NCBI GenBank assembly: GCA_965227515.1
Contig: CBDDFZ010000001.1
Location: 2,848,001-2,912,000 of the forward strand
Origin: Alphaproteobacteria bacterium
GTDB taxonomy: Bacteria > Pseudomonadota > Alphaproteobacteria > CALKHQ01
Length of the DNA stretch: 64,000 bases
Direction of reading: 5' to 3'
Shown: positions 47,240 to 62,088 of the stretch, piece after piece
How positions within the stretch are numbered: position 1 is the stretch's first letter
How the letters are laid out: each line of letters starts with the position of its first letter
Program-made: the position numbers and the translations under genes
The notes under the pieces: generated by a model
What the model was told of the DNA's origin: nothing
The model's database searches: none
Seen by the model: only the letters and a program-made list of their open reading frames with translations

Positions 47240-47313
<74 letters not shown>

Positions 47314-47315
<2 letters not shown>

Positions 47316-47453: not shown

Positions 47454-47546
47454 TCGGCCCTACGCCCCCAGCAGGCGCTGGTAGGTCTCGCGCACGGTCT
47501 GGCGCACCTTCTGCGGTTGCTCGTCCAGCGCCTGGGTCAGCGCCTT
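47454..47546 (-). pseudogene. Duplicated 3' end of cbpM (left copy of the 93-bp direct repeat)
   Basis: Identical to 57667-57759 except one synonymous base; encodes KALTQALDEQPQKVRQTVRETYQRLLGA*. Confidence 0.92.
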
Positions 47547-48084
47547 ATCTCGTCGCGGACCGAGTTGCCGCAGCGAAGGGCCTGTCGCTGGTGGACTATC
47601 CCACCGCCCGTGCTCGGACACTCGCACATGAGTGGAACATGACCGAGGCGGGCGTCCGGAGACGGATCTTGCGCTTGTGGGACTGCATTCACAAGATGGC
47701 ACTGCCAAGTCACGTGATTGGCCAGATGATGATCTGATCTTGAAATATCAGGCGTGGCACGATTATCGACCAAATCCGCATCGCGTATGTGTCATTGTGG
47801 CCAAGAAAGTCTATAAATGCGCACCACTGTTAACGATATGGAATTGTTGAGTCGTGGTATTATCTCTCGAGTTCTGTCTCACAACAAAATCATAACTGTA
47901 ACGAATGGAGCATAATATTCCAAAATTTTCACATATATATATTTATGCAGCGATTTGTCTTAACAACAATGGAATTCTCGTCACCTCATGGCGCGGAAGA
48001 CAAAAAAGAGACGGTTAGGCGTCGGCTGATGTGCTTGGTATTGCGCCAAAGTCAGATCGACGTATTTGCGCGAAACCATAGAAA

Positions 48085-48100
48085 TGACTGAATTCAGTCA
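48085..48100. promoter_or_regulatory. Perfect 16-bp palindrome, candidate operator of the island operon
   Basis: TGACTGAATTCAGTCA is its own reverse complement; ~140 bp upstream of ATG 48242. Confidence 0.5.
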
Positions 48101-48241
48101 ATCCAATCCTTGGTCATCACTCACAGTATTGCGGATAAATTGCATCACGGGACTTTGAACAATCGCCCTGTACGCCATATCGCGGATGGTGCATAGTATT
48201 TGGCTTGCAAATCCGTCTTAGCTCGCTGTCGTGGGAACGCC

Positions 48242-48775
48242 ATGCCTACAGTGAGGATGGAAGATTGGCTTGAGCTACTGGGCCTGACCGGGTCGGTTCA
48301 GCAGCTCCTTGCCGGGCAGCGAACGCTCAGCGATGCGCGCGAGGACGTAGAGTCGGCCAAGACGACCTGGCCCGGCGTGTCCCAGGATTTCGTCTCTGTT
48401 CTGGACCAGTTGAATCCCTTCTTTGACGACGTCGCCGATGTCATTTCCGAACAACACGATCTGATTGACGAGTTCAATAATGCCGTTGGCGAGTTCGGGG
48501 AAACATTCCCGGCCCCACAGGATCGGCTTCTGAATGAAGAGGATCTGGGGGACATCGCCGACATCCGCGATGCGCTGCTGGATTTCCTGGCCGAACTCCA
48601 CAGCCAAATCGAGTCCATCGTCGACGAGATCGAAGACCTGCTCAACGAGCTCGAGTCCCAGCGAGGCGGTCTGGAGGAAGGCGATCCGTTCCTCGCCGAC
48701 GAAATCGCCGAGACGCTTGAGGAACTGGAAGAGCTGCAGGAGGCGCTGGAAGGCGAGGGGTGCCTGGGTCCATGA
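48242..48775 (+). CDS. Hypothetical, very acidic alpha-helical protein with a W-x-G motif
   Basis: D/E-rich amphipathic heptads; 'KTTWPGVSQDF'; stop overlaps the next ATG (ATGA). Start is 48242 or 48257. Confidence 0.75.
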   Translation: MPTVRMEDWLELLGLTGSVQQLLAGQRTLSDAREDVESAKTTWPGVSQDFVSVLDQLNPFFDDVADVISEQHDLIDEFNNAVGEFGETFPAPQDRLLNEEDLGDIADIRDALLDFLAELHSQIESIVDEIEDLLNELESQRGGLEEGDPFLADEIAETLEELEELQEALEGEGCLGP

Positions 48776-49137
48776 CCGATGTACCGCCGCCCTTTGCCAC
48801 CGGTGACCTTGCCGCCCCCCTGACCCTCCCGGCCAGTGACCCCGACGATCCCATGGCAAAGCTGAGGGCGCTTCAGGCGGAACGCCGCCGCCTGGAGTTG
48901 CGGCGTATCGAGCTGGTGGTCGAACTGACCAATGCGCGCCGGGTCGTGGCGCGGTTCGAACAAGAGGCTTCGGCATCGTTGCAGGGGCCGGTGGAAGCAA
49001 TCCTGTTTGCGCGTGCTGCGTCGAACGCGGCCGAACTCGCGATTGCCGCGCGCATCGTCGAGCAGCGGCTGCGCCATATCGAACTGGAACTGCCGTCCGC
49101 CTTCGGCCGCACCGCCCTGGAGGTGACCCGCCGATGA
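48772..49137 (+). CDS. Hypothetical small Arg-rich coiled-coil protein
   Basis: 'LRALQAERRRLELRRIELVVEL'; ATGA overlaps at both ends. Confidence 0.75.
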   Translation: MTDVPPPFATGDLAAPLTLPASDPDDPMAKLRALQAERRRLELRRIELVVELTNARRVVARFEQEASASLQGPVEAILFARAASNAAELAIAARIVEQRLRHIELELPSAFGRTALEVTRR

Positions 49138-49667
49138 CCTTCCCGCCCGACACTCCGCTGCTGGACTGCGACCGTGTCGGCCTGCTTTGGGCGGAGGACT
49201 ATCTGCCCGCCGTCATCGCTGCGATCGAGGGGGCAAGAACGCGACTGGACGTTGCCATGTTCATTCTGGCGGTCGGCACAACGACACGGGCGCTGGACCG
49301 GGTGCGCGACCTGGCCGACATCTGCGCGCGGGCCCACCATCGCGGCGTCGCTTGCCGCGTCCTCATCAATGATTTTACCGAAGACGAAGAATTGCCGGTG
49401 CTGAACCTGGTCGCCGGCCACTATCTGGCGGCCGCCGATGTGCCCGTGCGCCAGTACCGAAGCGATCGGCACAGCAGCATTCATTCCAAGTATGCGTTGA
49501 TCGACGACGACAACGCCTTCGTCGGCAGCGGAAATTGGACCGGCGGCGGCTTGATGGCCAATCTCGAGGCATCGGTGCATGCGGTGTCGGCGCCGCTGGT
49601 GGCGATCCTGCGACGCCGCTTCGACAACGACTGGCAACGCGCTGCGATGCTGGAGCGCCTACCATGA
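49134..49667 (+). CDS. Phospholipase D superfamily protein, single HKD (Nuc-like)
   Basis: 'IHSKYALIDDDNAFVGSGNWT...NLEAS' and 'RGVACRVLI'; no signal peptide. Confidence 0.9.
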   Translation: MTFPPDTPLLDCDRVGLLWAEDYLPAVIAAIEGARTRLDVAMFILAVGTTTRALDRVRDLADICARAHHRGVACRVLINDFTEDEELPVLNLVAGHYLAAADVPVRQYRSDRHSSIHSKYALIDDDNAFVGSGNWTGGGLMANLEASVHAVSAPLVAILRRRFDNDWQRAAMLERLP

Positions 49668-51346
49668 ACGTGCTGCCCAACATGGCTCCGGAGGCTGCAC
49701 TGCTAACCGGACTGCTCGACCGCTGGCTGCCGGGCGCAAACCTTACGCACAGGCAATGGTGGTCTCTGCGCCGCGCGGTCATCCGCATCGGCAGTGCGCT
49801 GGGCGTTGTCGACGAACTGGCCAGGCTGCCCTTCGAGCAGGGCACGGTGTCCTACCAATCGAAAGTCATTGCCGAGGGCGTTGATGCCCTGGTGCGGCGC
49901 AGCGTCGACGTGGGCCCGACCGAGGCGGTGCCGTTCGCCGTCGCCGCAGCCGGCGGGGCATCCCCGGTGGCGGGAGTCGTGCCGGCCGAAATCGTGCCGC
50001 GCCTCGACATCAATGCTGCCGATACGGACCAGTTGGCCGGCCTGCCCGGGCTCGGGGGAGTCAGCGCCCGGCGTATCGTGGCACGACGGGACGCGCGTGG
50101 CCCCTATGTCGACCTGGAGGATGCGCGAAGGGCCGGCAACGTCTCCAAGGCGGCGTTCGCGCGCGCGACCGTTCACCTGTATGTCGGTGCCGCCGTGCCG
50201 CCCCGGTCCCAATTGCGCGAGACCGAACTGATCCAACGTGGCGGACTGAGCGCGTATCTGCAGCTATGGCAGGACGGTCGCCTCAGCACCCCGCACCTCA
50301 GCGCTGAGACGGCAGAGGACGCGCTGGTGACGCTGGTGCAGGGTTTTGCTGCCGCGGTGCGCGCCAAACCGGCGGTTCCGCGGCTTTGGGCGCCAGGCCG
50401 CCGCCGGCTGCGACGCGGCTCTCGGGCGCTTGGGCGCGCGACGGAACTGGAAGCCGCGATGGCGACCGATGCGCAGGTCGCACCGATCTTCAGTTCCGGC
50501 TATCTGCCGAAGCTCGTCGCCACGATCGATGCGGCCACCGCCACCGTCATTGCGTCCATGTTCTACTTCACGGTCGGCGAAGCAGATGTGGAGACCGACC
50601 CGGGGGACGAGATCGTCACGGCGCTGGAGCGGGCGATTGGGCGGGGAGTCGATGTGCGCCTGATCCTCGACGACGACGTGCCGACCGACCGGCACGGCGC
50701 CCAGCTTGTCAACGCGACCACGTTCTCCGTTCTCGAGGCCAAGGGGATTCCGTTCCGGCGGGATCATCTGGAGGTGACCTCTCACGCAAAGGCCATCGTG
50801 GTCGATGCACAGAACGCCATCGTCGGCAGTCATAATTGGACCGCGTCGTCGTTCTTCCGCTACCAGGAAACGTCCCTGTTCGTCAGGTCGAACGATTTCG
50901 GCCAGACGCTGTTCGAGCGACTGTCCCGGCGCTGGCAGATGCTGGCCCCCAAGAACGAGCGCATCGTGCCGGTCGAGCACCTGGAGAGCCTGGACTCCGA
51001 CCAGAAGGGCGCGGTCTTGGCCGCCGGCCTGGCCGATGGGCCGGCCTTTGTGAGTGCCACACGGCTGAAGGCGCAGCGCGATGCGCTGGTGGAGCCGCTC
51101 TTAATGGGCGAAGACGACATCGCGAACGTGCGGCGCATCGTCAATCTGATGCAGACCTTCCCCATCTCCGAGACGGCGGCCGTGGCGTTGATCGGCGATG
51201 GATTGGACTCAGCCAGCGAGGTGCGGCGGGCCACCGCCGCGCGCTTGCAGCAGGCATTCGCCAGGATGCCGGCACTGCCGGAGCCGTTCGGGCTGCGCGA
51301 GATATTGCCGGAAGTCGCGGACCGGCTGGCGGCCGAGGAGGGTTGA
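49664..51346 (+). CDS. ComEA-type HhH + single-HKD PLD + DUF4332-like C-terminal domain protein
   Basis: 'RLDINAADTDQLAGLPGLGGVSARRIVARRDARGPY' (HhH, ~50000-50180); 'SHAKAIVVD...VGSHNWT' (~50780-50840); degenerate HhH-like tail. Start is ATG 49664 (ATGA overlap). Confidence 0.85.
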   Translation: MNVLPNMAPEAALLTGLLDRWLPGANLTHRQWWSLRRAVIRIGSALGVVDELARLPFEQGTVSYQSKVIAEGVDALVRRSVDVGPTEAVPFAVAAAGGASPVAGVVPAEIVPRLDINAADTDQLAGLPGLGGVSARRIVARRDARGPYVDLEDARRAGNVSKAAFARATVHLYVGAAVPPRSQLRETELIQRGGLSAYLQLWQDGRLSTPHLSAETAEDALVTLVQGFAAAVRAKPAVPRLWAPGRRRLRRGSRALGRATELEAAMATDAQVAPIFSSGYLPKLVATIDAATATVIASMFYFTVGEADVETDPGDEIVTALERAIGRGVDVRLILDDDVPTDRHGAQLVNATTFSVLEAKGIPFRRDHLEVTSHAKAIVVDAQNAIVGSHNWTASSFFRYQETSLFVRSNDFGQTLFERLSRRWQMLAPKNERIVPVEHLESLDSDQKGAVLAAGLADGPAFVSATRLKAQRDALVEPLLMGEDDIANVRRIVNLMQTFPISETAAVALIGDGLDSASEVRRATAARLQQAFARMPALPEPFGLREILPEVADRLAAEEG

Positions 51347-51347
51347 G

Positions 51348-54300
51348 ATGGGCTACCTTCCACACCCGCATTACGCCGAGCAGGACCCGAATAATTCGGA
51401 GGTCATCCACTTCTACGAGACACACTACTCGGACGATCGCGACGATTGGACCCAGATCGGGTTCGGCACGCTGCCGGATGGCCTGACCTGGGACGAGTGG
51501 GTGGAGGGATTCGAGAACAACGAGGGCGTTCCGCTGGAAAACTTCGTCCCGGTCGATCCAGACGCCGGGGAGGGCGATGGAGACGGCCTGCCGGCGGGTG
51601 GAGAAGGCGATGGCGACGAATTGCCAGGGGATGGCGAAGGCGATGGGGGTGCCGGCGGCACGGTGGGCGACTCCGGTGATGGCGATGGCGACGCCGGGGA
51701 CGGCGACAGTGGCGATGGCGATTCCGGTGATGGCGATTCCGGCGATGGCGATTCCGGCGATGGCGCCAGCGGCGATGGCCAGGGCGACGGCGGGCAAGGC
51801 GACGGCCAGGGCGATGGCGGTGGTGGCGGCACCGGCGCCGCCGGTGAAGGCACGGGCGTGCAGGACAGCTTCATCGCGTTCTGCAAAGCCCTCATGGAGG
51901 ACTATGAGTCCGCGCTCGACAACCTGAACGACCTGGGCGAGCAGGTGCCCAGCGGCGGCGGCGAAGACGCTGCCGCGGAAGCCATCGGCATCAGCGAGGA
52001 GATCGGCGATCTTGCCGGTGTTCTGGAAGACCTGAACAGCGAGACGGAAGCGCTGACGTCTGCGTTGGGGCGCGGCCAGCTGGCATTGAATGGATTGCAT
52101 GACTCGGTCGGCGGCATCGACGGTGGCGACATCCTGTCCGACACGCCGTCGGTCTCGATTCAGCAGTTTGAGGAGCCGCCGGAGTTCGCGGAAACCGGCG
52201 GTGAGCCGGTCGCGCTGTCATCGGGCGCGTTCCAGAACGTTACGGTCGACCTGGTGATCCCGTCGGTGGGCGTGGATTTCGATGTCACCCGCATCTACAG
52301 CAACCAAGTCTACAATGCCGGGTCTTTCGGTGCGAAGTGGGATGTCTGGTTCGACGCCAACGTGCGCGAGCTCAGCAGCGGACTGGTCTATCTGTGGAGC
52401 GGCCAGGCGCGCGGCTGGTTCCTCAGCCCGGACGGGCCGAACGACTATGACGGCGGGGTCGGCTTCCGACACCGGTTCGTGCGTGCCGGCGGCGGCTGGG
52501 AGTTGCGCGATCGCACCGGATTTGTCTGGGTGTTCGACGGCGATGGGCACCTGTCCGAGCGCAGGGACCGGTTCGGCAATTTCATTCGCGTCAACCGCAA
52601 TGGCGACGGCCTGATTGTCGGCCTGGAGGACACCAACGGGCGCACCCTGACCGTGTCCCGCGACACGGCCGAGCGGGTTACCGAGATTGCCGACTGGACC
52701 GGGCGTGTCTGGCAGTACGACTATGACGGGCAGGTGCTGAGCGCGGTCACGCTGCCGGCAACGACCGATCATCCCGGCGGCCGGGTGATTCGGTACAGCT
52801 ATGATTCACCCGGACCGCCCCAGATGCGCGCCAACCTGGTGTCGATCGACAGCCCGGTCGGCTCCGAACTGGTGGCCAACATCTACGGCACGTCGGTTGA
52901 CGGCTTCAACAAGGTGATCGAGCAGGACTTCGCCGGCGACGACCATCAGTTCGAATACGAGGTCGTCAACGACGACATAGACGCGGAGGTGGTGAACCGT
53001 CACCAGTTGTCCCACCGCACCACCCATACCGACGGGCGCGGCATCGTCCACATCCATGAATTCAATGTGTTCGGTGGCCTGCTGGAGACGCGCACACTGT
53101 CACAGGGTATCGCCACCAATGCGCCGTCCAACTGGCGGTTCGCGTTCCAGTACGACACCTTGCTGCACAATCAGGAGATCGTCCTGCCCGGCGGTTCGAT
53201 CCTCCGTTTCAACTACGATCTCGGCGCCGGCGATCCGTTGGCGCGCCACGATATCCTGCAGATACGCCACGTGCCCAGCGACGGCGGCACCCACGCGGTC
53301 CACCGCTTCGAATACGGGGCCTTCGGCCAGGTGACCCGGTTCGAGGACCCGCTGGGCAATGTGTTCGAGATCGACGTCGACAACATGGGCCGTCCCACGC
53401 GGTACACGGGGCCGTCGGCCGAACTGGCGACTGGCGGCAGCCACACGCCGATCGTTGACACCGTTTATGATGCGCGCGGCCAGATCGTGAGCATCGCCAG
53501 CGCCGAGGGTGTCACCCACAGCTTCGAATACGAAGGCGGTGGCCAGAACGCCGGCCGTCTGGTGCGTCAGCGCCGCAACGGGACGCAGATCGCACAGTAC
53601 GATCGCGATGCCTTGTGGCGCGTCACCGGGTACACGGACGAGGCGGGTCATCTCTTCACGCTGCAATGGGATGCCGCCGACCAGGTGACGATGGAACTCG
53701 GCCCGACCGGCACCCACGTCAGGCGCAGGTACCGCTATGACGAGGCCGGCAGCCTGGTTGCGGTGGGCGAGCGCAACATCAACGAGAACGGGGTGGTCGG
53801 CTTCCCGGTCTTCGTCGAGACCACGTTCGAGCGTGACGTTCGCGGCCGTGTCACCGCGGTCCACCAGCCGATCGAAAGCGGCGTTTCGGCGGAAACGCTG
53901 ATCGAATGGGACGCCGACAACCGCATCGTCGAGGTGATCGATCCGGAAGGTGTCTCTACGCGTTGGGTCTGGGACGAGCGTGGCCTGATCCACGAGCGCA
54001 TCACGGCGGCGGGCACCAGCCGCGAGGCGGTCGAGCGCTTCGCGCACAACCTGGATGGACTGATCTCGTCGTACGCTGATCCGAATGGGAATGCGCGTAG
54101 TTACGCGTACGACGGCTACCTTCATAACGCGTCCATGCAGAGTCCGGACGGCACCACGGCGCGATGGGCGTTCGACCGCGCCGGGCGGCTGACCCGCGCC
54201 GATGTTGAGGACGGCGCCGGCATCCTGCGCGAACGTCACCGCTTCGACTACGACGCGCTTGGCCGTGTCATGCGCGTGCGACAGCGGGTCATCGAACCGG

Positions 54301-57300
54301 ACGGCATTGCCGTTGCCACCCTGGCCAACGAGGTCGCGTACGACCGGGACGGGCACCCGGTGGCGCTGATCGACGCCGATGGCGGCCGCCATGACATCGC
54401 CTGGAACGCGGCCGAAGACGTTGTTTCCGTGACCGATCCCTCCGGTGACCCGACGCTCTTCGAATACGATCCGCGCGGCCTGATGACACGCATGACCAGT
54501 GTCGGCACCGACACGGCCACCGGTGCGACGTCGGTTGTCAGCCACAGCTTTGCCCACGATGCGCTTGGGCGCCTGACCTCGGCGACCGACGGGCTCGGCA
54601 ACGCCGATCGCTACACTTACGACGGCCGCAACCGGTTGACTCAGTTGGAGCGGCCCGCCGGCGTGATCGAGGAATATGCCTACGACCTGGCCGGCCGCAT
54701 GACCCAGCGGCGCATCGCGAGGGTGCGCCCCAATGGCATCCCGTTGTCCGACGTGGTCGAGCTCGTCGGCTACGACCTTGCCGGACGGCCCGTGCGGCTG
54801 CGCGATGGCGGCGGCAATGAGATCGAAATCACGCGCGACGCCATGGGGGATGCGACCAGGATCGACCTGCCCGACTTCACATACGCTCAGTACGAATACG
54901 ATGCCGCCGGCAACCCGATACGCGTGCAAGACGGCCGCGGAACGGTCGTCGAGATCGATTATGACGGCCTCAACCGGCCAGTCCGCCAACAGGTCGTAAC
55001 GGCAGCCGGCGCGCTCGGCGCCACCGATGAAGAGTTCGAATACGATGCGACCGGCAATCTGGTGCGGGCGGAAAATGCCAGCCACGTTGTCGAGCGAACC
55101 TTCGATTCGCTGGGCCGGCTGCGCAGCGAAGAGGTCGATGGACGAACCGCCACCCGCACCTATCGCGCCAACGGCTTGCCCCGGGACCTGGCCTATCCGT
55201 CGGGGTTCCGGTTACGCGCCAGCTTCGACGACGCGCATCGGCTGCGCGACCTGAGTATCGTCTCGGCCGGCAGCGGGTTTCCAGGTGGAGCGTTGCCGCC
55301 GGACCCGCTGCTCCACTGGGACTATCGGGCCGAGGTTTTCCCCTCACGGCTAACCACAGCCGGCGGCGCCGAGCAGCGCATCGGCTACGATGCCGCGGGG
55401 CGAGACTTGGAAATCGCGGTCGCGACAACGGCGGGGCCGGACGAGCACCTGGTCAATCTGCGTGACGGGTTTGGGCGCATTCGCATGCGATTGCGCGACA
55501 GCCTTCACACCACGGCGGCCAGGTACGAGAGTACCGGCTGGCTCAGCAGCGTTGCGCAAGGCGCGGCGCCCGCACTTCCTGGCCTCTCCAATTGGCGGCC
55601 GACCGGCAACAGCGCCAACCCCAACCCGGCGGGCGATCAGAACTCGCTCAACGTGCTGGCGGCGAGCCTGGATCCCGCCGTACCTGACCGCAGCGACGAC
55701 TACGCCTACGACAGCCGCGGCAACCGAACGTCGCACACCCGCGCGGAAGGTGGCGTGGACAATACGGTGTCATGGACCTACGACGATTCAAGCCGGGTGA
55801 CATCGATGTCCGGCGCGTCTGTGACCTCCGACGGGGCCGGCAACGTGCGCGACGACGGCGTACATCGCTACAGCTATGACCACGCCGGGCGGTTGACCAG
55901 GATTGAGCCCACCGGTGGCGGTGCGGCTCTGGTCGAGATCAGCCGCGACGCGTTGGGCCGGGCGATCGAGGTGACGACGCCGTCTGGCACCCGTCGCCGG
56001 TTCTACGCGGTTCTCGACCTGATCGAGGAAACGACGGCGACCGGCAGCTTGCTGGCGCTCTACGTTCCCGGCACCAGCATCGACCAGCCGCTGGTTGCCT
56101 TCGCGGGCGGTGACGTCGCGTTTGCGCATCAGGACTCGGTCGGCACCGTTTTCGCGACGACGGACCGTGACGGCCGCCTGCAGCACCGCTATGTGCGCGA
56201 CGAGTTCGGGCAGGTGCTCGGCACTCTGGCGGCGGATGGCTTGCCGCTGCCAGCAGGAACTGACATCTACCCGTTCGGTTTGCAGGGCCGCGATGCCTGG
56301 ACCGACGATCCGATCGTCGTCGATTATCGTGCCCGCGTGATGCGCGCCGATTGGGGTCGGTTCCTGCAGCCCGATCCATTGGGGCTGGCCGGCGGCGCGA
56401 ACGTCTATCAGTTCGTTGGCAACAACCCGCTGCTGTACGTTGACCCGACGGGCGAGCTCGCGTTCCTGCTTGCAGGCATCCTGGCGGGTGCGCTGATCGG
56501 CGGCGGCGTCGCGGCGTGGTTCAACCGCGACAAGTCCGGCTGGGACTTCTGGGTGCCGGTGATCGGCGGGGCGGTGGGCGGCGCGGTGATGGGGTCCGGC
56601 CTGGGTCTGGCCGGGTTCGTTGCCGGGGGCGCCATCAGCGGCGGTATCGTTGGCAGCTATGAGGGCTACAAGGCCGGTGGCGTGAAGGGGGCGATAATCG
56701 GCGGCACCTTTGGCACCGTGTTCGGCGGATTGGCTGGGGGCGTCGGCGGCTCGGTCGGGCGCAGCGTCACAACGCGCTTTACCGGCCAGATTACCAACAG
56801 CCTGATCGGGCGGATGTCGGGCCAGAGCGCCTATGCCGTGGGCTCCTATGCCGGTGCCGGCCTTGGCGCCGCGGCGGGCGGCGGCGCTGGCGGCGGCATC
56901 AATGGCTTCGGCAATGGCGTGGGGCAGTCGCTCGCCGCCGGTCAGGATGTCGGGGATTCGCTGCGCAATGGCGCAAACGCCACGCTGCCCGGCGTTGGCT
57001 ACGGCCTGGCAACCGGCGTCGTCTCCGGCGTCGGCACCAAGGGCCTGATGCAAGCGGGCAGCTACCACGGATTCAAAGGCGGGCCGACCTGGCTCAGCGG
57101 TCGGAACAGCCGTGCCGGCGTCATCGGCGCCGAGGGCGAGTTCTTTGTCGGCCAATCCATTGGGCAGCGTGCCAACACCGCGTTCCGTACACCTGGCGGC
57201 AAGATCCCGGACTTCTGGGGCCGCGTGCGCGCGGAGGTCAAGAACACCGCCAAGGTGCCGACGCTCAACCAACAACGCGGGCAATTGCGGCAGTTCATTG

Positions 57301-57470
57301 CCGCCAATCGTGGTGCCGGGTCGGACCCGTTCCAGCTCTTCCTGCGGCCGGGTGTGACGCCGCCGCCGCGTGGCGGGGTGATGGGACAGGTCAATGCCGG
57401 CAATCTGGTGCTGCGGACGATCCCGCACTACGCCTATCCGGCGCTGGCGAGCCTGCCGCTGGGCTGCTGA
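51348..57470 (+). CDS. Rhs/YD-repeat polymorphic toxin (2040 aa) with DUF6531-like domain and PD-(D/E)xK nuclease tip
   Basis: RBS GAGGAGG before ATG 51348; 'GEPVALSSG...TRIYSNQ...FGAKW'; many YD-x-x-GR repeats; core end 'GRFLQPDPLGLAGGANVYQFVGNNPLLYVDPTGE'; tip 'KIPDF...AEVKN...QLRQF'. Confidence 0.93.
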   Translation: MGYLPHPHYAEQDPNNSEVIHFYETHYSDDRDDWTQIGFGTLPDGLTWDEWVEGFENNEGVPLENFVPVDPDAGEGDGDGLPAGGEGDGDELPGDGEGDGGAGGTVGDSGDGDGDAGDGDSGDGDSGDGDSGDGDSGDGASGDGQGDGGQGDGQGDGGGGGTGAAGEGTGVQDSFIAFCKALMEDYESALDNLNDLGEQVPSGGGEDAAAEAIGISEEIGDLAGVLEDLNSETEALTSALGRGQLALNGLHDSVGGIDGGDILSDTPSVSIQQFEEPPEFAETGGEPVALSSGAFQNVTVDLVIPSVGVDFDVTRIYSNQVYNAGSFGAKWDVWFDANVRELSSGLVYLWSGQARGWFLSPDGPNDYDGGVGFRHRFVRAGGGWELRDRTGFVWVFDGDGHLSERRDRFGNFIRVNRNGDGLIVGLEDTNGRTLTVSRDTAERVTEIADWTGRVWQYDYDGQVLSAVTLPATTDHPGGRVIRYSYDSPGPPQMRANLVSIDSPVGSELVANIYGTSVDGFNKVIEQDFAGDDHQFEYEVVNDDIDAEVVNRHQLSHRTTHTDGRGIVHIHEFNVFGGLLETRTLSQGIATNAPSNWRFAFQYDTLLHNQEIVLPGGSILRFNYDLGAGDPLARHDILQIRHVPSDGGTHAVHRFEYGAFGQVTRFEDPLGNVFEIDVDNMGRPTRYTGPSAELATGGSHTPIVDTVYDARGQIVSIASAEGVTHSFEYEGGGQNAGRLVRQRRNGTQIAQYDRDALWRVTGYTDEAGHLFTLQWDAADQVTMELGPTGTHVRRRYRYDEAGSLVAVGERNINENGVVGFPVFVETTFERDVRGRVTAVHQPIESGVSAETLIEWDADNRIVEVIDPEGVSTRWVWDERGLIHERITAAGTSREAVERFAHNLDGLISSYADPNGNARSYAYDGYLHNASMQSPDGTTARWAFDRAGRLTRADVEDGAGILRERHRFDYDALGRVMRVRQRVIEPDGIAVATLANEVAYDRDGHPVALIDADGGRHDIAWNAAEDVVSVTDPSGDPTLFEYDPRGLMTRMTSVGTDTATGATSVVSHSFAHDALGRLTSATDGLGNADRYTYDGRNRLTQLERPAGVIEEYAYDLAGRMTQRRIARVRPNGIPLSDVVELVGYDLAGRPVRLRDGGGNEIEITRDAMGDATRIDLPDFTYAQYEYDAAGNPIRVQDGRGTVVEIDYDGLNRPVRQQVVTAAGALGATDEEFEYDATGNLVRAENASHVVERTFDSLGRLRSEEVDGRTATRTYRANGLPRDLAYPSGFRLRASFDDAHRLRDLSIVSAGSGFPGGALPPDPLLHWDYRAEVFPSRLTTAGGAEQRIGYDAAGRDLEIAVATTAGPDEHLVNLRDGFGRIRMRLRDSLHTTAARYESTGWLSSVAQGAAPALPGLSNWRPTGNSANPNPAGDQNSLNVLAASLDPAVPDRSDDYAYDSRGNRTSHTRAEGGVDNTVSWTYDDSSRVTSMSGASVTSDGAGNVRDDGVHRYSYDHAGRLTRIEPTGGGAALVEISRDALGRAIEVTTPSGTRRRFYAVLDLIEETTATGSLLALYVPGTSIDQPLVAFAGGDVAFAHQDSVGTVFATTDRDGRLQHRYVRDEFGQVLGTLAADGLPLPAGTDIYPFGLQGRDAWTDDPIVVDYRARVMRADWGRFLQPDPLGLAGGANVYQFVGNNPLLYVDPTGELAFLLAGILAGALIGGGVAAWFNRDKSGWDFWVPVIGGAVGGAVMGSGLGLAGFVAGGAISGGIVGSYEGYKAGGVKGAIIGGTFGTVFGGLAGGVGGSVGRSVTTRFTGQITNSLIGRMSGQSAYAVGSYAGAGLGAAAGGGAGGGINGFGNGVGQSLAAGQDVGDSLRNGANATLPGVGYGLATGVVSGVGTKGLMQAGSYHGFKGGPTWLSGRNSRAGVIGAEGEFFVGQSIGQRANTAFRTPGGKIPDFWGRVRAEVKNTAKVPTLNQQRGQLRQFIAANRGAGSDPFQLFLRPGVTPPPRGGVMGQVNAGNLVLRTIPHYAYPALASLPLGC
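51711..51770 (+). repeat. 15-bp coding tandem repeat (GDGDS)
   Basis: GGCGATGGCGATTCC x3 (one with a C>T change) plus a degenerate fourth copy, inside a longer G/D-rich tract of the Rhs N-terminus. Confidence 0.85.
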
Positions 57471-57557
57471 CCGGTCACGTCCTGGTCGGATCAGGCTTCA
57501 TCACCACGGGGCCAAGCCCGCCGCGGTGAGTGCAGCCTTGCAGATCGTGCATACGTT

Positions 57558-57614
57558 GTGAGCGCAGGAACAGGGCGTGAGCGCAGGAACAGGGCGTGAG
57601 CGCCGGACCAGGGC
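57558..57614. repeat. 19-bp tandem repeat x3 near the right island junction
   Basis: GTGAGCGCAGGAACAGGGC twice, then GTGAGCGCCGGACCAGGGC. Confidence 0.9.
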
Positions 57615-57672
57615 TGCGTATCAAGACCCTGTGCCTCGAAACCGCCGTTTGGACCGAGCTCGATGCTCGGCC

Positions 57673-58011
57673 CTACGCCCCCAGCAGGCGCTGGTAGGTC
57701 TCGCGGACGGTCTGGCGCACCTTCTGCGGTTGCTCGTCCAGCGCCTGGGTCAGCGCCTTGAACTCGCGGCGCATGCCGTAGAGCTGGTCGAGCAGCGACA
57801 GCACAACCGGCACGGCGTCGTCGTTCAGGTTCATCTCTTCCTTCAGTTCGCAGACCAGGCGGACGCGCTCAACGTCCAGATCGTCGAACCTGGGGCCGGA
57901 GGTGCTTGTCGCCGGCACCACCCAGCCATTGCGCACCCACAGCCGCAGCCGGCGGAGCGTGATGCGGTCGACCTCGGCGACGACCTGGGTCTCGGTCCAC
58001 ATGGTGGTCAT
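57673..58011 (-). CDS. cbpM: Chaperone modulator CbpM (MerR-like HTH)
   Basis: 'LRLWVRNGWVVP...FDDLDVERVRLVCEL...VVLSLLDQLYGMRR'; ATGA-coupled to cbpA. Confidence 0.88.
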   Translation of the reverse strand: MTTMWTETQVVAEVDRITLRRLRLWVRNGWVVPATSTSGPRFDDLDVERVRLVCELKEEMNLNDDAVPVVLSLLDQLYGMRREFKALTQALDEQPQKVRQTVRETYQRLLGA

Positions 58012-58955
58012 GACGCCCTCCCGAACGCGCCGCGCGGGTCGTAGTGGTTCTTTTCCCGCCACGTCTGCATGAACGCCTCAAGCTCCGGATCGATCCGGCG
58101 CGGCATAACCACCTTCAGCACCACACGCTGGTCGCCGGCGCCCGATTTGGCCTTCACGCCGCGCCCCTTCAGCCGCAGGGTATCGCCGCTGGTGGCGCCT
58201 TTCGGCACCGTCATGCTGACCCGACCGCCGATGGTCGGCACCTCCACCTTGCCGCCCAGCACCGCCTCGTCGATGGAGATCGGCACCTCGACCACGATGT
58301 CGTTGCCGTCGCGGCTGAACACGGCGTGGGGGCGGACGGTGATGTCGATCAGCGCGTCGCCGGCGGGGCCTTCGCCCAGCCCGGCACCGCCCTTGCCCTT
58401 CAGCCTGAGGGTGCTGCCGTCGCGGGTGCCGGGCGGGATCGTCAGGTCCAGCGCATTGCCGTCGGGCATGGTGATGCGTTGCTTGGTGCCGTTGACGGCG
58501 TCCAGGAAGTCGACCTCCAGGTGGTAGCGCGCGTCCGCTCCACGGGCGTGAAAGCCGTGCCCGCCCTGCGCCCCGCCGCGCCGGCCGCCACGGGCCTGGG
58601 CCCGCTCGCCGAACAGGTCGGAGAAGATGTCGGAATAGTTGGCGAAATCCTCGAACCCGGCGGAGCTCGCATAGCGCTGCCCGCCATCGCCCTCGGCATA
58701 GTGGCGATAGCGCGGCTGCTGTGCGCGTTCCGCACCCGAGGCATCGATCTCGCCACGGTCGAAGCGCGCGCGCTGCTCGGCATCGCTCAACAGATGATAG
58801 GCAGCCGACACCTGCTTGAATCGCTCCTCGGCCGCCTTGTCGCCGGGGTTCAGGTCCGGGTGCAGCTCCTTGGCGAGCTTGCGGTAGGCCTTGCGGATAT
58901 CGGCCTCGGACGCGGACTTCTCCACGCCCAGTACGGTGTAGGGATCGTCAGCCAC
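58008..58955 (-). CDS. cbpA: DnaJ-class chaperone CbpA (no zinc finger)
   Basis: J domain 'DPYTVLGV...YRKLAKELHPDLNPGD', DnaJ C-terminal 'LRLKGKG', paired with cbpM. Confidence 0.9.
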   Translation of the reverse strand: MADDPYTVLGVEKSASEADIRKAYRKLAKELHPDLNPGDKAAEERFKQVSAAYHLLSDAEQRARFDRGEIDASGAERAQQPRYRHYAEGDGGQRYASSAGFEDFANYSDIFSDLFGERAQARGGRRGGAQGGHGFHARGADARYHLEVDFLDAVNGTKQRITMPDGNALDLTIPPGTRDGSTLRLKGKGGAGLGEGPAGDALIDITVRPHAVFSRDGNDIVVEVPISIDEAVLGGKVEVPTIGGRVSMTVPKGATSGDTLRLKGRGVKAKSGAGDQRVVLKVVMPRRIDPELEAFMQTWREKNHYDPRGAFGRAS

Positions 58956-59058
58956 CTTGCCTCCACTCCCGAAAGTGACGTGCGCGCACAGTCGCCCGCA
59001 TGGCGATGTGGCGCAACGGAATCAACCCAATCATATATGGGTAAGGTGCCGGGAGGCG

Positions 59059-59286
59059 TCACCCGGCCTTCGGCGTATCGGCGGATTGTTCGTCGTCGCC
59101 CCGGTGCTGCTGTGCGCTCTTGGGCACGGCGACCTGATCGGCCACGCTGTCGTCGTCGATCAGGATGCGATGGGCCGCGCCGTCCAGATCCTCGAACTGG
59201 CCCGATTTCAACGACCACAGGAAAGCGCCCAGGCCGACCAGGCCCAGGAACAGCGCAATCGGAATCAGGAAGAGCAGTTGGTCCAT
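59059..59286 (-). CDS. ccoS: cbb3-type oxidase maturation protein CcoS/FixS
   Basis: 'LIPIALFLGLVGLGAFLWSLKSGQFEDLDGAAHRILIDD'. Confidence 0.93.
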   Translation of the reverse strand: MDQLLFLIPIALFLGLVGLGAFLWSLKSGQFEDLDGAAHRILIDDDSVADQVAVPKSAQQHRGDDEQSADTPKAG

Positions 59287-59290
59287 TGTG

Positions 59291-61519: not shown

Positions 61520-62088
61520 TCCACGACCAGCCGGTGCTCGGCTCGATGGTGGTCGTCACCGTGGTCGATCTCGACCCGAATCTCCCACAGGCCAGCCAAC
61601 GGCAGGTCAACCGTCGCTTCGTATCGACCATCGCCGACAGCCGCCAAATTCGCCTCGATATCGAAGCCTTCGTGGATCGGGCGCCTGAGCGTGGCGGTGA
61701 CCGTGGCGTCGTCGAACGGCGCGCCGTCACGGTCGGACACCGTGGCGCTCACCAGCATCTGCAGGGTTGAGTCACCCGGCACCCTCGTGGCGCCGATGGC
61801 CACCTGCCAGCCCCTGGCGTTCTGCGCCGCGACCTCATCGAGCGTGCGGTTGTAGGTGAGGCCACGGTCGTAGGCGCCGTCGGTGGCCAGCCCGTTGAAC
61901 GAGCCCAATGCCAACGCGAGCATCACGCCGTTGACCGCGATCACGAGCAGGAAGCCGCCGACGATGGCCCAGGGAATCCAGCGGCTGCGGCGCGGGTCGA
62001 CGTCGTCGTCCTGACCATCATTTCGAAATGGGCCGCCGTATCGATTGGGGCCGCTATGTTGGGCCAGTTCATGGTCCATGGAAGACAT
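61516..62088 (-). CDS. ccoH: FixH/CcoH family protein
   Basis: 'WIPWAIVGGFLLVIAVNGVM...AYDRGLTYN...GW'. Confidence 0.88.
   Translation of the reverse strand: MSSMDHELAQHSGPNRYGGPFRNDGQDDDVDPRRSRWIPWAIVGGFLLVIAVNGVMLALALGSFNGLATDGAYDRGLTYNRTLDEVAAQNARGWQVAIGATRVPGDSTLQMLVSATVSDRDGAPFDDATVTATLRRPIHEGFDIEANLAAVGDGRYEATVDLPLAGLWEIRVEIDHGDDHHRAEHRLVVE

What the first reader, a model, noticed from the sequence alone, without database searches (positions are those of the whole stretch)
48242..57470. Candidate undescribed system: two helical proteins + paired PLD/HhH nucleases + Rhs-caged REase toxin, with no secretion or immunity genes
Seen: five co-oriented genes with ATGA overlaps at 48772, 49134 and 49664 and a 1-bp gap before 51348, i.e. 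one translationally coupled unit that is the island's whole cargo. None has an evident signal peptide; there is no PAAR, VgrG, EagR/DcrB chaperone, TcA/TcB or downstream immunity ORF. Known: Rhs shells encapsulate an autocleaved C-terminal toxin and normally come with a delivery module and an immunity gene; Nuc-type PLD domains act as nucleases in restriction and anti-phage systems (BfiI, DISARM DrmC). Inference, two testable models: (a) an intracellular defence/suicide device in which the HhH-PLD pair senses or cuts foreign DNA and the caged nuclease is released on trigger, so no immunity protein is needed; (b) an antagonism module with a new export route in which the helical proteins are adaptors for the Rhs N-terminus. 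I cannot establish novelty without searches.
Basis: partly seen in the sequence, partly recalled or inferred. Interest (0 to 1): 0.9.

Follow-up and report, generated by a model that had tools for sequence, protein, structure and literature searches.

The report
Rare five-gene Rhs toxin island
A small foreign island carries a caged (Rhs) nuclease toxin with two helical helper proteins and two DNA-cutting enzymes; this gene set recurs in distant bacteria, yet has no visible export machine or antidote gene.

Summary
Five co-oriented, start/stop-overlapping genes (48242-57470) are the only cargo of a 10.1-kb island bounded by a 93-bp direct repeat next to tRNA-Lys. They encode a very acidic helical protein (sub-threshold WXG100), a second helical protein, two single-HKD Nuc-type PLD proteins (one with ComEA-like HhH) and a 2040-aa Rhs. 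After the autocleavage motif the Rhs carries a glycine-zipper hydrophobic segment and a Tox-REase-7-like PD-(D/E)xK domain.

The same gene order, with the same overlaps, recurs at 25-42% identity in two independent metagenome loci, one probably Chloroflexota. The family is very rare. Rhs relatives in five Bacteroidota genomes lack the four upstream genes and have a different unknown partner. No locus has a recognisable immunity gene.

The host has one T6SS (no PAAR) 1.1 Mb away and no T7SS ATPase or sheath gene; the Tc search was uninformative.

Best reading (0.45): an antagonism cassette whose helical pair binds the Rhs N-terminus, like Listeria LrhA-LxpABC, with the export route unresolved. 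An intracellular defence device (0.2) is not excluded.

Verdict: new variant of a known kind.

The parts
47240..47315 (+). tRNA-Lys(CTT), just left of the island (context)
   Evidence: ARAGORN
47454..47546 (.). Left copy of the 93-nt direct repeat: a duplicated 3' end of the MerR-family gene
   Evidence: the repeat finder family D3, 99% identical to 57667-57759; only these two copies in the genome
47547..48241 (.). A+T-richer non-coding leader of the island (GC 0.52 in 47500-48499), presumed to hold the promoter
   Evidence: Composition profile; sequence; no sigma-70-like site found by the simple scan; the 72-aa ORF at 47632-47850 has no Pfam match
48242..48775 (+). Gene 1 (P0001, 177 aa): all-helical, net charge -40, with a W-P-G turn. 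WXG100 and DUF948 matches are below threshold.
   Evidence: WXG100 E 8.6e-4, 20 bits vs cut-off 27.3; AF2 pLDDT 83.3; helices 29-42 and 48-85 flank the WPG. Homologues in L003 and L001.
48772..49137 (+). Gene 2 (P0002, 121 aa): Arg-rich helical protein with no family match
   Evidence: ORFs of 104-107 aa in the same position in L003 and L001 align at 36% and 28% identity. Their pI is 11.6; the window's is 6.6.
49134..49667 (+). Gene 3 (P0003, 177 aa): minimal single-HKD PLD protein of the Nuc/Zucchini kind
   Evidence: PLDc_2 73.6 bits. H117, K119 and G133-N134 are invariant in 3 of 3 sequences. Nearest solved sequences: 7e0m phospholipase, mitoPLD, Nuc 1byr.
49664..51346 (+). Gene 4 (P0004, 560 aa): helical N-terminus, ComEA-like HhH (residues 114-168), single-HKD PLD (284-424), weak DUF4332/HhH-like C-terminus
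   Evidence: H374, K376, D381 and G388-S-H-N391 invariant in 5 of 5; HhH nearest EEPD1, Tex, ComEA; PLD nearest 7e0m, Nuc, mitoPLD, PLD3/4
51348..57470 (+). Gene 5 (P0005, 2040 aa): Rhs protein
   Evidence: The start at 51348 is supported by alignment of the N-terminus with P0012 and L003.
51348..52202 (+). Rhs N-terminal region: small conserved domain (residues ~1-69), Gly/Asp-rich acidic linker (~70-165, tandem DNA repeats), acidic predicted helical stretch (~166-285). Net charge of residues 1-290 is -68.
   Evidence: (repeat family D1). Weak predicted binding of residues 165-285 to genes 1+2.
52200..56456 (+). Rhs shell: DUF6531 plug (residues 285-349), YD repeats, Rhs-associated core ending in DPLGL-(18 residues)-DPTGE (DPTGE = residues 1699-1703)
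   Evidence: motif read
56457..57032 (+). Encapsulated glycine-zipper hydrophobic segment (residues 1704-1895), with three to four hydrophobic Gly-rich stretches
   Evidence: Hydropathy. 42-56% identity to L003, L001 and Hyunsoonleella L027, with an invariant N-x-DK-x-G-x-DF block. Gly-zipper_YMGG in 1 of 4 members, E 0.0015.
57033..57467 (+). C-terminal PD-(D/E)xK nuclease-like domain (residues 1896-2040), Tox-REase-7-like; last residue is Cys
   Evidence: Invariant E34, E36, P59-D60, K70-N71-T72 and Q84-L85-R86 in 5 of 5. The published Tox-REase-7 signature is GxxxE, IxD, ExK, Q (PMC3482391, table rows read). A profile of this domain hits P0043, which carries Pfam Tox-REase-7 at E 1.6e-12.
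57558..57614 (.). Three tandem copies of a 19-nt unit between the Rhs stop and the right repeat (the third is imperfect)
   Evidence: Read by eye; not analysed further
57667..57759 (.). Right copy of the 93-nt direct repeat, overlapping the intact 3' end of the MerR-family gene
   Evidence: MerR_2 and MerR_1 on 57673-58062 (-)

Best explanation
This is a horizontally acquired Rhs toxin cassette for antagonism against other cells.

Shown:
- The Rhs shell has the canonical DPxGL-(18)-DPxGE motif.
- After that motif lies a payload of two modules: a conserved glycine-zipper hydrophobic segment and a Tox-REase-7-like PD-(D/E)xK nuclease.

Inferred:
- The payload is cut off and stays caged in the shell, which keeps the producer safe.
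- After delivery, the glycine-zipper segment inserts into the target's cytoplasmic membrane and carries the nuclease inside. This is as reported for the glycine zipper of the Agrobacterium T6SS DNase Tde1.
- Genes 1 and 2 form a helical bundle with the very acidic helical N-terminal region of the Rhs. They act as chaperone or targeting partners, like Lap proteins with LXG toxins and LxpABC with the Listeria Rhs toxin LrhA.
- The two single-HKD PLD proteins pair into one Nuc-like active site with HhH DNA-binding arms. They are a conserved accessory DNase whose role is open: a co-delivered toxin, processing of released DNA, or self-protection.

The export route in this host is unresolved. It may be an unrecognised route, a loose link to the host's single PAAR-less T6SS, or release by lysis.
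For: 1. Canonical Rhs parts are present: RHS_repeat E 4.9e-58 and DUF6531 30.5 bits; Rhs_assc_core 49.8 bits at residues 1656-1702; DPLGL-(18)-DPTGE.

2. The payload has two modules. The hydrophobic Gly-rich segment is 42-56% identical across the window, L003, L001 and Hyunsoonleella. The nuclease motifs are invariant in 5 of 5 sequences and match the published Tox-REase-7 signature.

3. In Bacteroidota relatives whose shells are 40-43% identical to the Hyunsoonleella Rhs, the C-terminal regions differ. By eye there are three types among five loci, each starting with a hydrophobic stretch. This is polymorphic-toxin logic.

4. Gene order and overlapping starts and stops are kept in L003 and L001/L002 at 25-42% identity. 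HKD residues are intact in both PLD families.

5. Gene 1 is modelled as all-helical (pLDDT 83.3) with W-P-G in the turn between helices 29-42 and 48-85. It has a sub-threshold WXG100 match.

6. Complex prediction on genes 1+2 with Rhs residues 165-285 gave 'weak support'. The score was 0.52 (runs 0.52, 0.57, 0.01) against a best control of 0.01 from 3 controls. The mark was reached by 58 of 80 solved complexes and 2 of 110 mismatched pairs. At 0.60 or under, however, only 7 of those 80 solved complexes and both mismatches passed. The runs agree in at least 13% of contacts, and the partner's pLDDT is at least 41.

7. There is a precedent. Listeria LrhA is a DUF6531-Rhs with a helical N-terminus of no known family, encoded after three small helical genes, one of them WXG100 (PMC10327511, passages read). 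RHS proteins with small WXG100-related partners are candidate substrates of several T7SS variants (PMC11217815, passages read). A glycine zipper is needed for translocation of the DNase Tde1 (PMC10240207, title and start of abstract only).
Against: - No immunity gene follows the Rhs in the window, L003, L027, L028, L029 or L031. That is unusual for an antibacterial Rhs.
- The host has no T7SS ATPase. Its only strong FtsK-family hit is a canonical FtsK with 4TM, alpha, motor and gamma domains.
- The host has no PAAR and no contractile-sheath gene. The TcA search found nothing, but its control rang in no genome.
- 0 of 5 Bacteroidota genomes with related Rhs genes have a TssC match.
- The helical-partner idea rests on sub-threshold evidence. 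WXG100 scores 20 bits against a cut-off of 27.3, and WxG is kept in 2 of 3 sequences. No LXG match was found. Foldseek gave 0 PDB matches at E<=0.001. One of three complex runs scored 0.01.
- The nuclease fold itself is not confirmed (pLDDT 37.9).
- Two PLD genes sit between the helical genes and the Rhs, which no described T7SS or T6SS Rhs locus shows (from the papers read; my literature searches were).
- The toxin domain is not shuffled among other toxin types. All 18 hits among 1.84 billion representatives carry it at the C-terminal end. 9 of the 18 are over 1000 aa, and all 5 that I scanned are Rhs.
Confidence: 0.45

Rival explanations
1. Intracellular defence or suicide device. The Rhs cage holds a membrane-active nuclease effector inactive inside the producer. 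The HhH-PLD pair and the acidic helical proteins sense or process invading DNA and trigger release. No export and no immunity protein are needed.
For: - No recognisable immunity gene in any locus of the clade examined.
- No signal peptide by a crude check.
- No secretion gene in the island.
- The five-gene form occurs in a T6SS-bearing host and in a contig whose flanking gene is at least 90% identical to Chloroflexota MAG proteins. The Rhs clade also occurs in Bacteroidota without TssC (0 of 5 genomes) and in a Thermoleophilia MAG. Dependence on one host secretion machine therefore looks unlikely.
- The cassette is nuclease-rich. An ExeM/NucH-like EEP gene adjoins the unit in both L003 and L001.
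- The best PADLOC and NCBIfam hits of both PLD proteins are DrmC and MkoB.
Against: - Those PLD hits are far below family cut-offs (about 42 bits against 133 for DrmC). The partner genes of DISARM and Mokosh are absent from the island.
- Genes 1, 2 and 5 match no PADLOC model beyond weak coiled-coil noise. The neighbours tested in related loci gave only a generic patatin hit.
- A glycine-zipper segment fused in front of a nuclease is the design of toxins that enter a cell from outside.
- No defence genes flank the island.
- My full-text search for Rhs with anti-phage terms found no paper holding both 'Rhs' and 'anti-phage' among the 15 listed of 17.
Confidence: 0.2
2. Toxin aimed at organisms other than kin (eukaryotic grazers or unrelated microbes), released by lysis or an unknown route, as with Tc-type BC cocoons. 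Sibling cells are never targets, so no immunity gene is kept. The PLD, EEP and, in L003, patatin enzymes would be accessory hydrolases.
For: - Immunity genes are absent across all C-terminal types of the clade.
- The host genera named by the tools are free-living environmental bacteria.
- Hydrolase genes lie next to the unit in L003 (patatin, EEP) and L001 (EEP).
- Tc cocoons are a known case of an immunity-less Rhs-type cage (recalled knowledge; cited in PMC10327511 as Busby et al. 2013).
Against: - No SpvB, TcdB-mid or TcA-like domain. The TcA search of the genome was empty, but its control rang nowhere.
- The HhH domains point to DNA rather than lipid. The nearest relatives of the PLD domains are nucleases (Nuc, mitoPLD/Zucchini, PLD3/4) as well as one phospholipase.
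- There is no lysis cassette in the island.
Confidence: 0.15
3. An orphan: a cassette that works with a T7SS-like machine in its original lineage and was carried into this host on a small island. Here it is intact but cannot be exported and does nothing.
For: - The island has a foreign signature: 93-nt repeats, lower GC3 and an A+T-richer leader.
- The host lacks a T7SS ATPase.
- A relative sits in a probable Chloroflexota contig. That phylum is listed among T7SS holders in PMC3482391.
Against: - All five frames are open, including 6.1 kb of Rhs.
- The catalytic motifs are intact.
- Near-identical pieces of the island (a few differences per 200-335 letters) occur in contigs of a run from a second study (X2), so it persists in related strains.
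- No expression data were available.
Confidence: 0.1

Closest known systems
Listeria LrhA Rhs toxin with LxpABC partner proteins (T7SSb, essC8 locus; PMC10327511)
   Same: - A DUF6531-Rhs with an N-terminal helical region of no known family.
- Small, almost fully helical proteins, one of WXG100 type, encoded just upstream.
- Modelled by its authors as an N-terminal helical bundle.
   Different: - LrhA lies beside essC8 and has an immunity gene (lrhI) downstream. Here there is no T7SS ATPase in the genome and no immunity gene.
- Here there are two helical genes rather than three.
- Two PLD genes lie between them and the Rhs.
- A long acidic linker is present.
- The host carries a T6SS.
T6SS Rhs effectors (P. 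protegens RhsA, P. aeruginosa Tse5)
   Same: - An Rhs cocoon with a C-terminal autocleavage motif.
- Tse5 carries an encapsulated pore-forming payload (PMC10684867, title and start of abstract only). That it is glycine-zipper rich is recalled, not read.
   Different: - No PAAR or prePAAR, no Eag chaperone, no vgrG nearby and no immunity gene.
- The host's T6SS cluster is 1.1 Mb away.
- Relatives occur in 5 genomes without TssC.
Agrobacterium Tde1 (T6SS DNase with a glycine zipper needed for translocation; PMC10240207, title and start of abstract only)
   Same: A glycine-zipper segment is joined to a DNase domain. This suggests membrane entry followed by DNA attack.
   Different: - Tde1 is a small, non-Rhs effector with immunity protein Tdi1 and a different nuclease fold (recalled, not read).
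- Here the zipper lies inside an Rhs cage, directly after the cleavage site.
Tc toxin BC cocoons (TcB-TcC)
   Same: An Rhs-type cage with an autocleaved payload and no immunity gene.
   Different: - No SpvB or beta-propeller part and no TcA partner.
- The payload here has membrane segments.
Nuc-type PLD nucleases in defence systems (DISARM DrmC, Mokosh MkoB) and Nuc/Zucchini
   Same: - A single HKD motif per chain, so dimerisation is needed for an active site.
- Nearest solved sequences include Nuc 1byr and mitoPLD.
- The best PADLOC and NCBIfam names are DrmC and MkoB.
   Different: - Scores are far below the family cut-offs.
- The DISARM and Mokosh partner genes are absent.
- Here the proteins come as a conserved pair, one with ComEA-like HhH arms, locked to an Rhs gene.

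Membership tests
Rhs/YD-repeat encapsulated toxins | YD/RHS repeats forming the shell | tested here: met
   PF05593 E 4.9e-58; TIGR01643 E 8e-57
Rhs/YD-repeat encapsulated toxins | Rhs-associated core with the DPxGL-(18)-DPxG autocleavage motif before the payload | tested here: met
   TIGR03696 49.8 bits (cut-off 32.5) at residues 1656-1702; DPLGL-18 residues-DPTGE read. Cleavage itself was not tested.
Rhs/YD-repeat encapsulated toxins | Cognate immunity gene directly downstream (antibacterial members) | tested here: not met
   196 nt to the island end, with no ORF of 50 aa or more that starts after the Rhs stop. None in L003, L027, L028, L029 or L031 either.
T6SS Rhs effectors | PAAR/prePAAR domain or a link to vgrG and an Eag chaperone | tested here: not met
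   No such Pfam match in the five proteins. 0 PAAR matches in the 99.67%-complete genome. The single vgrG lies at C1:3.998 Mb.
T7SS Rhs/LXG substrates | EssC/EccC-type multi-domain FtsK-family ATPase in the genome | tested here: not met
   One strong PF01580 match, a canonical FtsK (4TM, alpha, motor, gamma); one sub-threshold match of 22.8 bits
T7SS Rhs/LXG substrates | WXG100 or Lap-type small helical partners encoded beside the toxin | tested here: inconclusive
   Gene 1: WXG100 E 8.6e-4, 20 bits vs cut-off 27.3; WxG in 2 of 3 sequences; helical hairpin model; no PDB fold match. Gene 2: no family.
T7SS Rhs/LXG substrates | LXG or LXG-like N-terminal helical domain that binds the partners | tested here: inconclusive
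   No LXG Pfam match. Complex prediction gave weak support: 0.52 vs best control 0.01, one run at 0.01, partner pLDDT at least 41.
Tox-REase-7 (PD-(D/E)xK toxin domain) | Signature GxxxE, IxD, ExK, Q (PMC3482391) | tested here: met
   G-A-E-G-E, I-P-D, E-V-K and Q-L-R in the window. The E, PD, K and QLR columns are invariant in 5 of 5. The first residue of the (D/E)xK motif and the residue before PD vary among the five. Signature read.
Tox-REase-7 (PD-(D/E)xK toxin domain) | Match to Pfam PF15649 above its cut-off | tested here: not met
   0 families for the window's domain; 1 of 5 members at E 0.054. Only the distant hit P0043 passes, at E 1.6e-12.
PLD superfamily, Nuc-type | PLDc_2 domain with an intact HxK...D...GSxN motif | tested here: met
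   73.6 and 70.3 bits (cut-off 27). H, K and G-S-x-N are invariant in both families.
PLD superfamily, Nuc-type | Two HKD chains pair to form one active site | not tested
   Inferred from family knowledge.
DISARM (DrmC) / Mokosh (MkoB) | Family-level score and presence of the system's other genes | tested here: not met
   DrmC model: 42.3 and 41.5 bits vs cut-off 133. No helicase, methylase or DrmA/B-like gene in the island.
Tc toxins (TcA/TcB/TcC) | SpvB/TcdB-mid domains on the cocoon protein and a TcA gene | tested here: inconclusive
   No such domains. VRP1 search of the genome was empty, but its control rang in no genome.

The most novel reading that the evidence does not exclude
A secretion-independent caged-effector device. 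The Rhs cocoon would serve as the safety catch for a membrane-inserting nuclease inside the producer's own cytoplasm. The acidic helical pair and the HhH-PLD nuclease pair would act as sensor or trigger for invading DNA. If so, Rhs cages would be a new class of abortive-infection or programmed-death effector, found from Pseudomonadota to Chloroflexota, and possibly in Bacteroidota with a different sensor gene.
Probability: 0.2. Interest if true: 0.9.

Novelty: new variant of a known kind. Interest (0 to 1): 0.6.

Why it matters
Rhs toxins are normally read through their delivery tag (PAAR, LXG, signal peptide, TcB) and their immunity gene. This clade has neither. It still keeps a fixed set of partner genes across very distant lineages with different cell envelopes.

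If it is an antagonism module, it points to an unrecognised export or targeting route in which small helical partners work outside a classical T7SS. It also points to a new role for paired PLD nucleases.

If it acts inside the producer, Rhs cages would enter the repertoire of defence effectors.

Either way the island is small (10 kb, five genes), self-contained and easy to move into a laboratory host.

Tried and rejected
- Structure of the nuclease domain: AF2 on a 5-row alignment gave pLDDT 37.9. It was not used for any fold search.
- Foldseek of the gene 1 model against PDB: 0 of 445 matches at E<=0.001; best TM-score about 0.3.
- ESM Atlas: gene 1's best score was 0.79, below the usable level. 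The Bacteroidota upstream ORF gave no usable hit.
- hhalign of gene 1 against the Rhs N-terminus: probability 5.6%, so no paralogy.
- PDB sequence searches with the nuclease and glycine-zipper profiles: nothing below E 0.09.
- Genome-contig scan with the P0004 alignment: 52 pattern matches, 0 relatives. The patterns used were narrow, so this is weak evidence of absence.
- Word-based search with the glycine-zipper part of the Rhs: only P0012.
- Empty-site test: the nearest genomes held are too distant (about 70% DNA identity). No tRNA lies beside the cbpM-like homologues in 3 loci.
- Expression: no RNA holder is listed for the stretch.
- Read laying: runs X7 and X8 gave no contig matching the island, only short low-identity pieces in the left flank, so they give no empty site. 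X1 has a 10,243-nt contig spanning 47517-57759.
- Promoter and terminator scans of the leader and tail: nothing above the shuffled expectation.
- L003:7935-9077 (+) and L001:7-495 (+) looked at first like extra operon genes. Their translations are Arg/Val/His-rich wrong-frame products, and the real gene at that place in L003 is the EEP gene on the other strand.
- Earlier findings of this scan: none near this place, none by sequence.

Full report
**What is there.**
The window lies at C1:2848001-2912000 of a two-replicon genome (4.07 + 1.45 Mb, 66.6% G+C). Starts and stops overlap as ATGA at 48772, 49134 and 49664, and a single base separates gene 4 from the Rhs start at 51348.

A 93-nt direct repeat (47454-47546 and 57667-57759, 99% identical) brackets the genes. 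It duplicates the last codons of the MerR-family gene at 57673-58062 (-). tRNA-Lys lies just to the left. The island occurs once in the genome. It has a 695-bp A+T-richer leader. Its GC3 is 0.72-0.82, against 0.88-0.91 for three flanking genes. It holds no integrase-sized ORF. The five genes are therefore the whole cargo of a small foreign island.

**The parts.**
- **P0001** is extremely acidic (net charge -40). It is modelled as all-helical (pLDDT 83.3) with W-P-G in the turn between helices 29-42 and 48-85. Its WXG100 and DUF948 matches are below the curated cut-offs. Foldseek finds no PDB match at E<=0.001.
- **P0002** is an Arg-rich helical protein with no family match.
- **P0003 and P0004** each carry one PLDc_2 domain well above the cut-off, with intact HKD residues. 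P0004 adds a ComEA-type HhH domain and a weak DUF4332 match. By sequence, the nearest solved structures are one phospholipase (7e0m), Nuc, mitoPLD/Zucchini and PLD3/4 for the PLD parts. For the HhH part they are EEPD1, Tex and ComEA. The DrmC and MkoB matches are generic and far below cut-off.
- **P0005** has five regions:
  1. a small N-terminal domain;
  2. a Gly/Asp-rich linker, encoded by tandem DNA repeats;
  3. an acidic stretch that I take to be helical (net charge of residues 1-290 is -68);
  4. a DUF6531 plug and the YD-repeat shell, ending in the Rhs-associated core with DPLGL-(18)-DPTGE;
  5. a two-module payload.
- **The payload's first module** (residues 1704-1895) has three to four hydrophobic Gly-rich stretches. 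It is 42-56% identical in relatives from three other lineages.
- **The payload's last 145 residues** have invariant GxExE, PD, (D/E)xK-NT and QLR columns in 5 of 5 sequences. These match the published Tox-REase-7 signature GxxxE, IxD, ExK, Q (PMC3482391, table rows read). The window's own domain gives no Pfam match and its model is unusable. The nuclease call therefore rests on motifs, and on a profile link to P0043, which carries Pfam Tox-REase-7.

**Is the unit real?**
P0004 is rare. A word-based search of 5.8 billion clusters found 4 other proteins at 50-58% identity. A pattern scan of 185,579 species genomes found none (the patterns were narrow). The metagenome scan gave 18 loci, of which 3 hold full-length relatives (L001, L002, L003). 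L001 and L002 give identical hits and count as one.

In L003 and L001 the order is the same: gene 1, gene 2, PLD, HhH-PLD, Rhs. tblastn did not detect gene 2, but an ORF of 104-107 aa sits in its place and aligns at 36% and 28% identity. All four junctions overlap or abut as in the window. Protein identities are 25-42%, so the arrangement has survived long divergence.

A flanking protein of L003 clusters at 90% identity or more with proteins of Chloroflexota/Dehalococcoidia MAGs. L003's neighbours are only remotely like the window's genome.

An EEP-family gene, weakly ExeM/NucH-like, adjoins the unit in both loci: divergent upstream in L003 and overlapping the Rhs stop in L001. The two copies are 28% identical to each other. 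The window's genome has none.

**The Rhs family beyond the unit.**
A profile of the nuclease domain hit only 18 of 1.84 billion representatives, always at the C-terminal end. Nine of the 18 are longer than 1000 aa. I scanned 5 of these 9: all have RHS repeats and 4 have DUF6531. One member is named as from a Thermoleophilia MAG and one as from Hyunsoonleella aquatilis.

A genome scan with the Hyunsoonleella protein returned five Bacteroidota loci. Fourteen queries (the four upstream proteins from three loci, plus the Rhs N- and C-terminal parts) gave a single hit there, the toxin region in L027. Instead, all five loci carry a related 624-713-aa ORF of no known family directly upstream.

Their C-terminal regions fall, by eye, into three types, each beginning with a hydrophobic stretch. 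In the four loci with downstream sequence, the downstream genes are either convergent, as in L027 (two alpha/beta-hydrolase-like genes, read by eye) and L029 (RsmF), or have housekeeping family matches, as in L028 and L031. None of the five genomes has a TssC match.

**The host's export machines.**
- T6SS: two adjacent TssC genes and one VgrG at C1:3.998-4.006 Mb, plus one partial TssC-like hit at 0.31 Mb.
- No PAAR match.
- This is the only Rhs gene: 4 of 4 RHS matches fall in this frame.
- One canonical FtsK and no EssC-type ATPase.
- No sheath gene.
- No TcA match, although that search's control rang in no genome.

**How it most likely works.**
The payload design is a conserved membrane-inserting segment followed by a nuclease, and C-terminal domains are swapped in the sister clade. 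That is the logic of toxins that enter another cell. The same logic is reported for the glycine zipper of the DNase Tde1 (PMC10240207, title and start of abstract only).

Two small helical genes ahead of an Rhs whose N-terminus is helical and of no known family recall the Listeria LrhA-LxpABC locus (PMC10327511, passages read). They also recall the wider link between RHS proteins, WXG100-like partners and T7SS variants (PMC11217815, passages read).

A complex prediction of genes 1+2 with Rhs residues 165-285 gave weak support. The score was 0.52 against a best control of 0.01, from runs of 0.52, 0.57 and 0.01. Contact agreement was at least 13% and the partner's pLDDT at least 41. In the tool's calibration, passes at 0.60 or under were reached by only 7 of 80 solved complexes and by both of the 2 mismatched pairs that passed.

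I therefore favour an antagonism cassette with helical partner proteins, at 0.45. The export route is open.

**What speaks against it, and the rivals.**
Three facts fit poorly with a classical antibacterial Rhs:
- the consistent lack of an immunity gene;
- the spread across lineages with different envelopes and secretion systems;
- the fixed rather than shuffled toxin in the five-gene form.

These facts keep three other readings alive:
It has no positive support from PADLOC. The full-text search found no paper holding both 'Rhs' and 'anti-phage' among the 15 listed of 17.
- A toxin aimed at non-kin organisms and released without a dedicated machine, at 0.15.
- An exported-elsewhere orphan, at 0.1.

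It is a lead that I did not test.

**Novelty.**
The components belong to known kinds: Rhs cage, Tox-REase-7-like nuclease, Nuc-type PLD. New here are the conserved five-gene architecture, the PLD pair locked to an Rhs, the acidic helical partners in a host without a T7SS, and the clade-wide absence of immunity genes. I found none of this in the papers I searched.

I rate it a new variant of a known kind, with interest 0.6.

Noticed in passing
L003:8028-9011 (-) and L001:9545-10645 (+): An EEP-family (Exo_endo_phos_3, weakly ExeM/NucH-like) gene adjoins the five-gene unit in both metagenome loci, at different positions and orientations. The two copies are 28% identical over 338 aa. The window's genome has no homologue. 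It may be an optional sixth component.
   Followed up: partly
L027:7827-9926, L028:7022-9085, L029:6983-8857, L030:323-2464, L031:7743-9779: A conserved 624-713-aa ORF with no Pfam, NCBIfam or PADLOC match lies directly upstream of a related Rhs in five Bacteroidota genomes that have no TssC match. L028 and L029, which share one C-terminal toxin type, have an extra ORF of about 290 aa between it and the Rhs.
   Followed up: partly
window 57465-57467 (last codon of the Rhs) and relatives: Cys is the very last residue in 6 of the 12 family members printed (P0005, P0010, P0011, P0012, P0038, P0042). I have no explanation.
   Followed up: no
window 51555-51860: The Gly/Asp-rich linker of the Rhs is encoded by overlapping tandem DNA repeats (family D1, 11 copies here). 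Its length could vary by slippage. Relatives have linkers of different length and composition.
   Followed up: no
window 57558-57614: Three tandem copies of a 19-nt unit lie between the Rhs stop and the right island repeat. This was read by eye.
   Followed up: no
G000:C1:4003749-4006252 and C1:312653-313162: The host's T6SS cluster has two adjacent TssC paralogues. A third, partial TssC-like match lies far away. The genome has one VgrG and no PAAR match.
   Followed up: no
window 58008-63589 (-): To the right of the island lie a DnaJ-like gene and genes that look like fixI/ccoI, fixH and fixG/ccoG. I read these by eye from the translations and recalled the names; no tool was used.
   Followed up: no
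window 47517-57759: In run X1 the island assembles as one 10,243-nt contig that ends inside both 93-nt repeats. Run X2, from another study, holds short pieces of the island and its right flank with a few differences each.
   Followed up: partly
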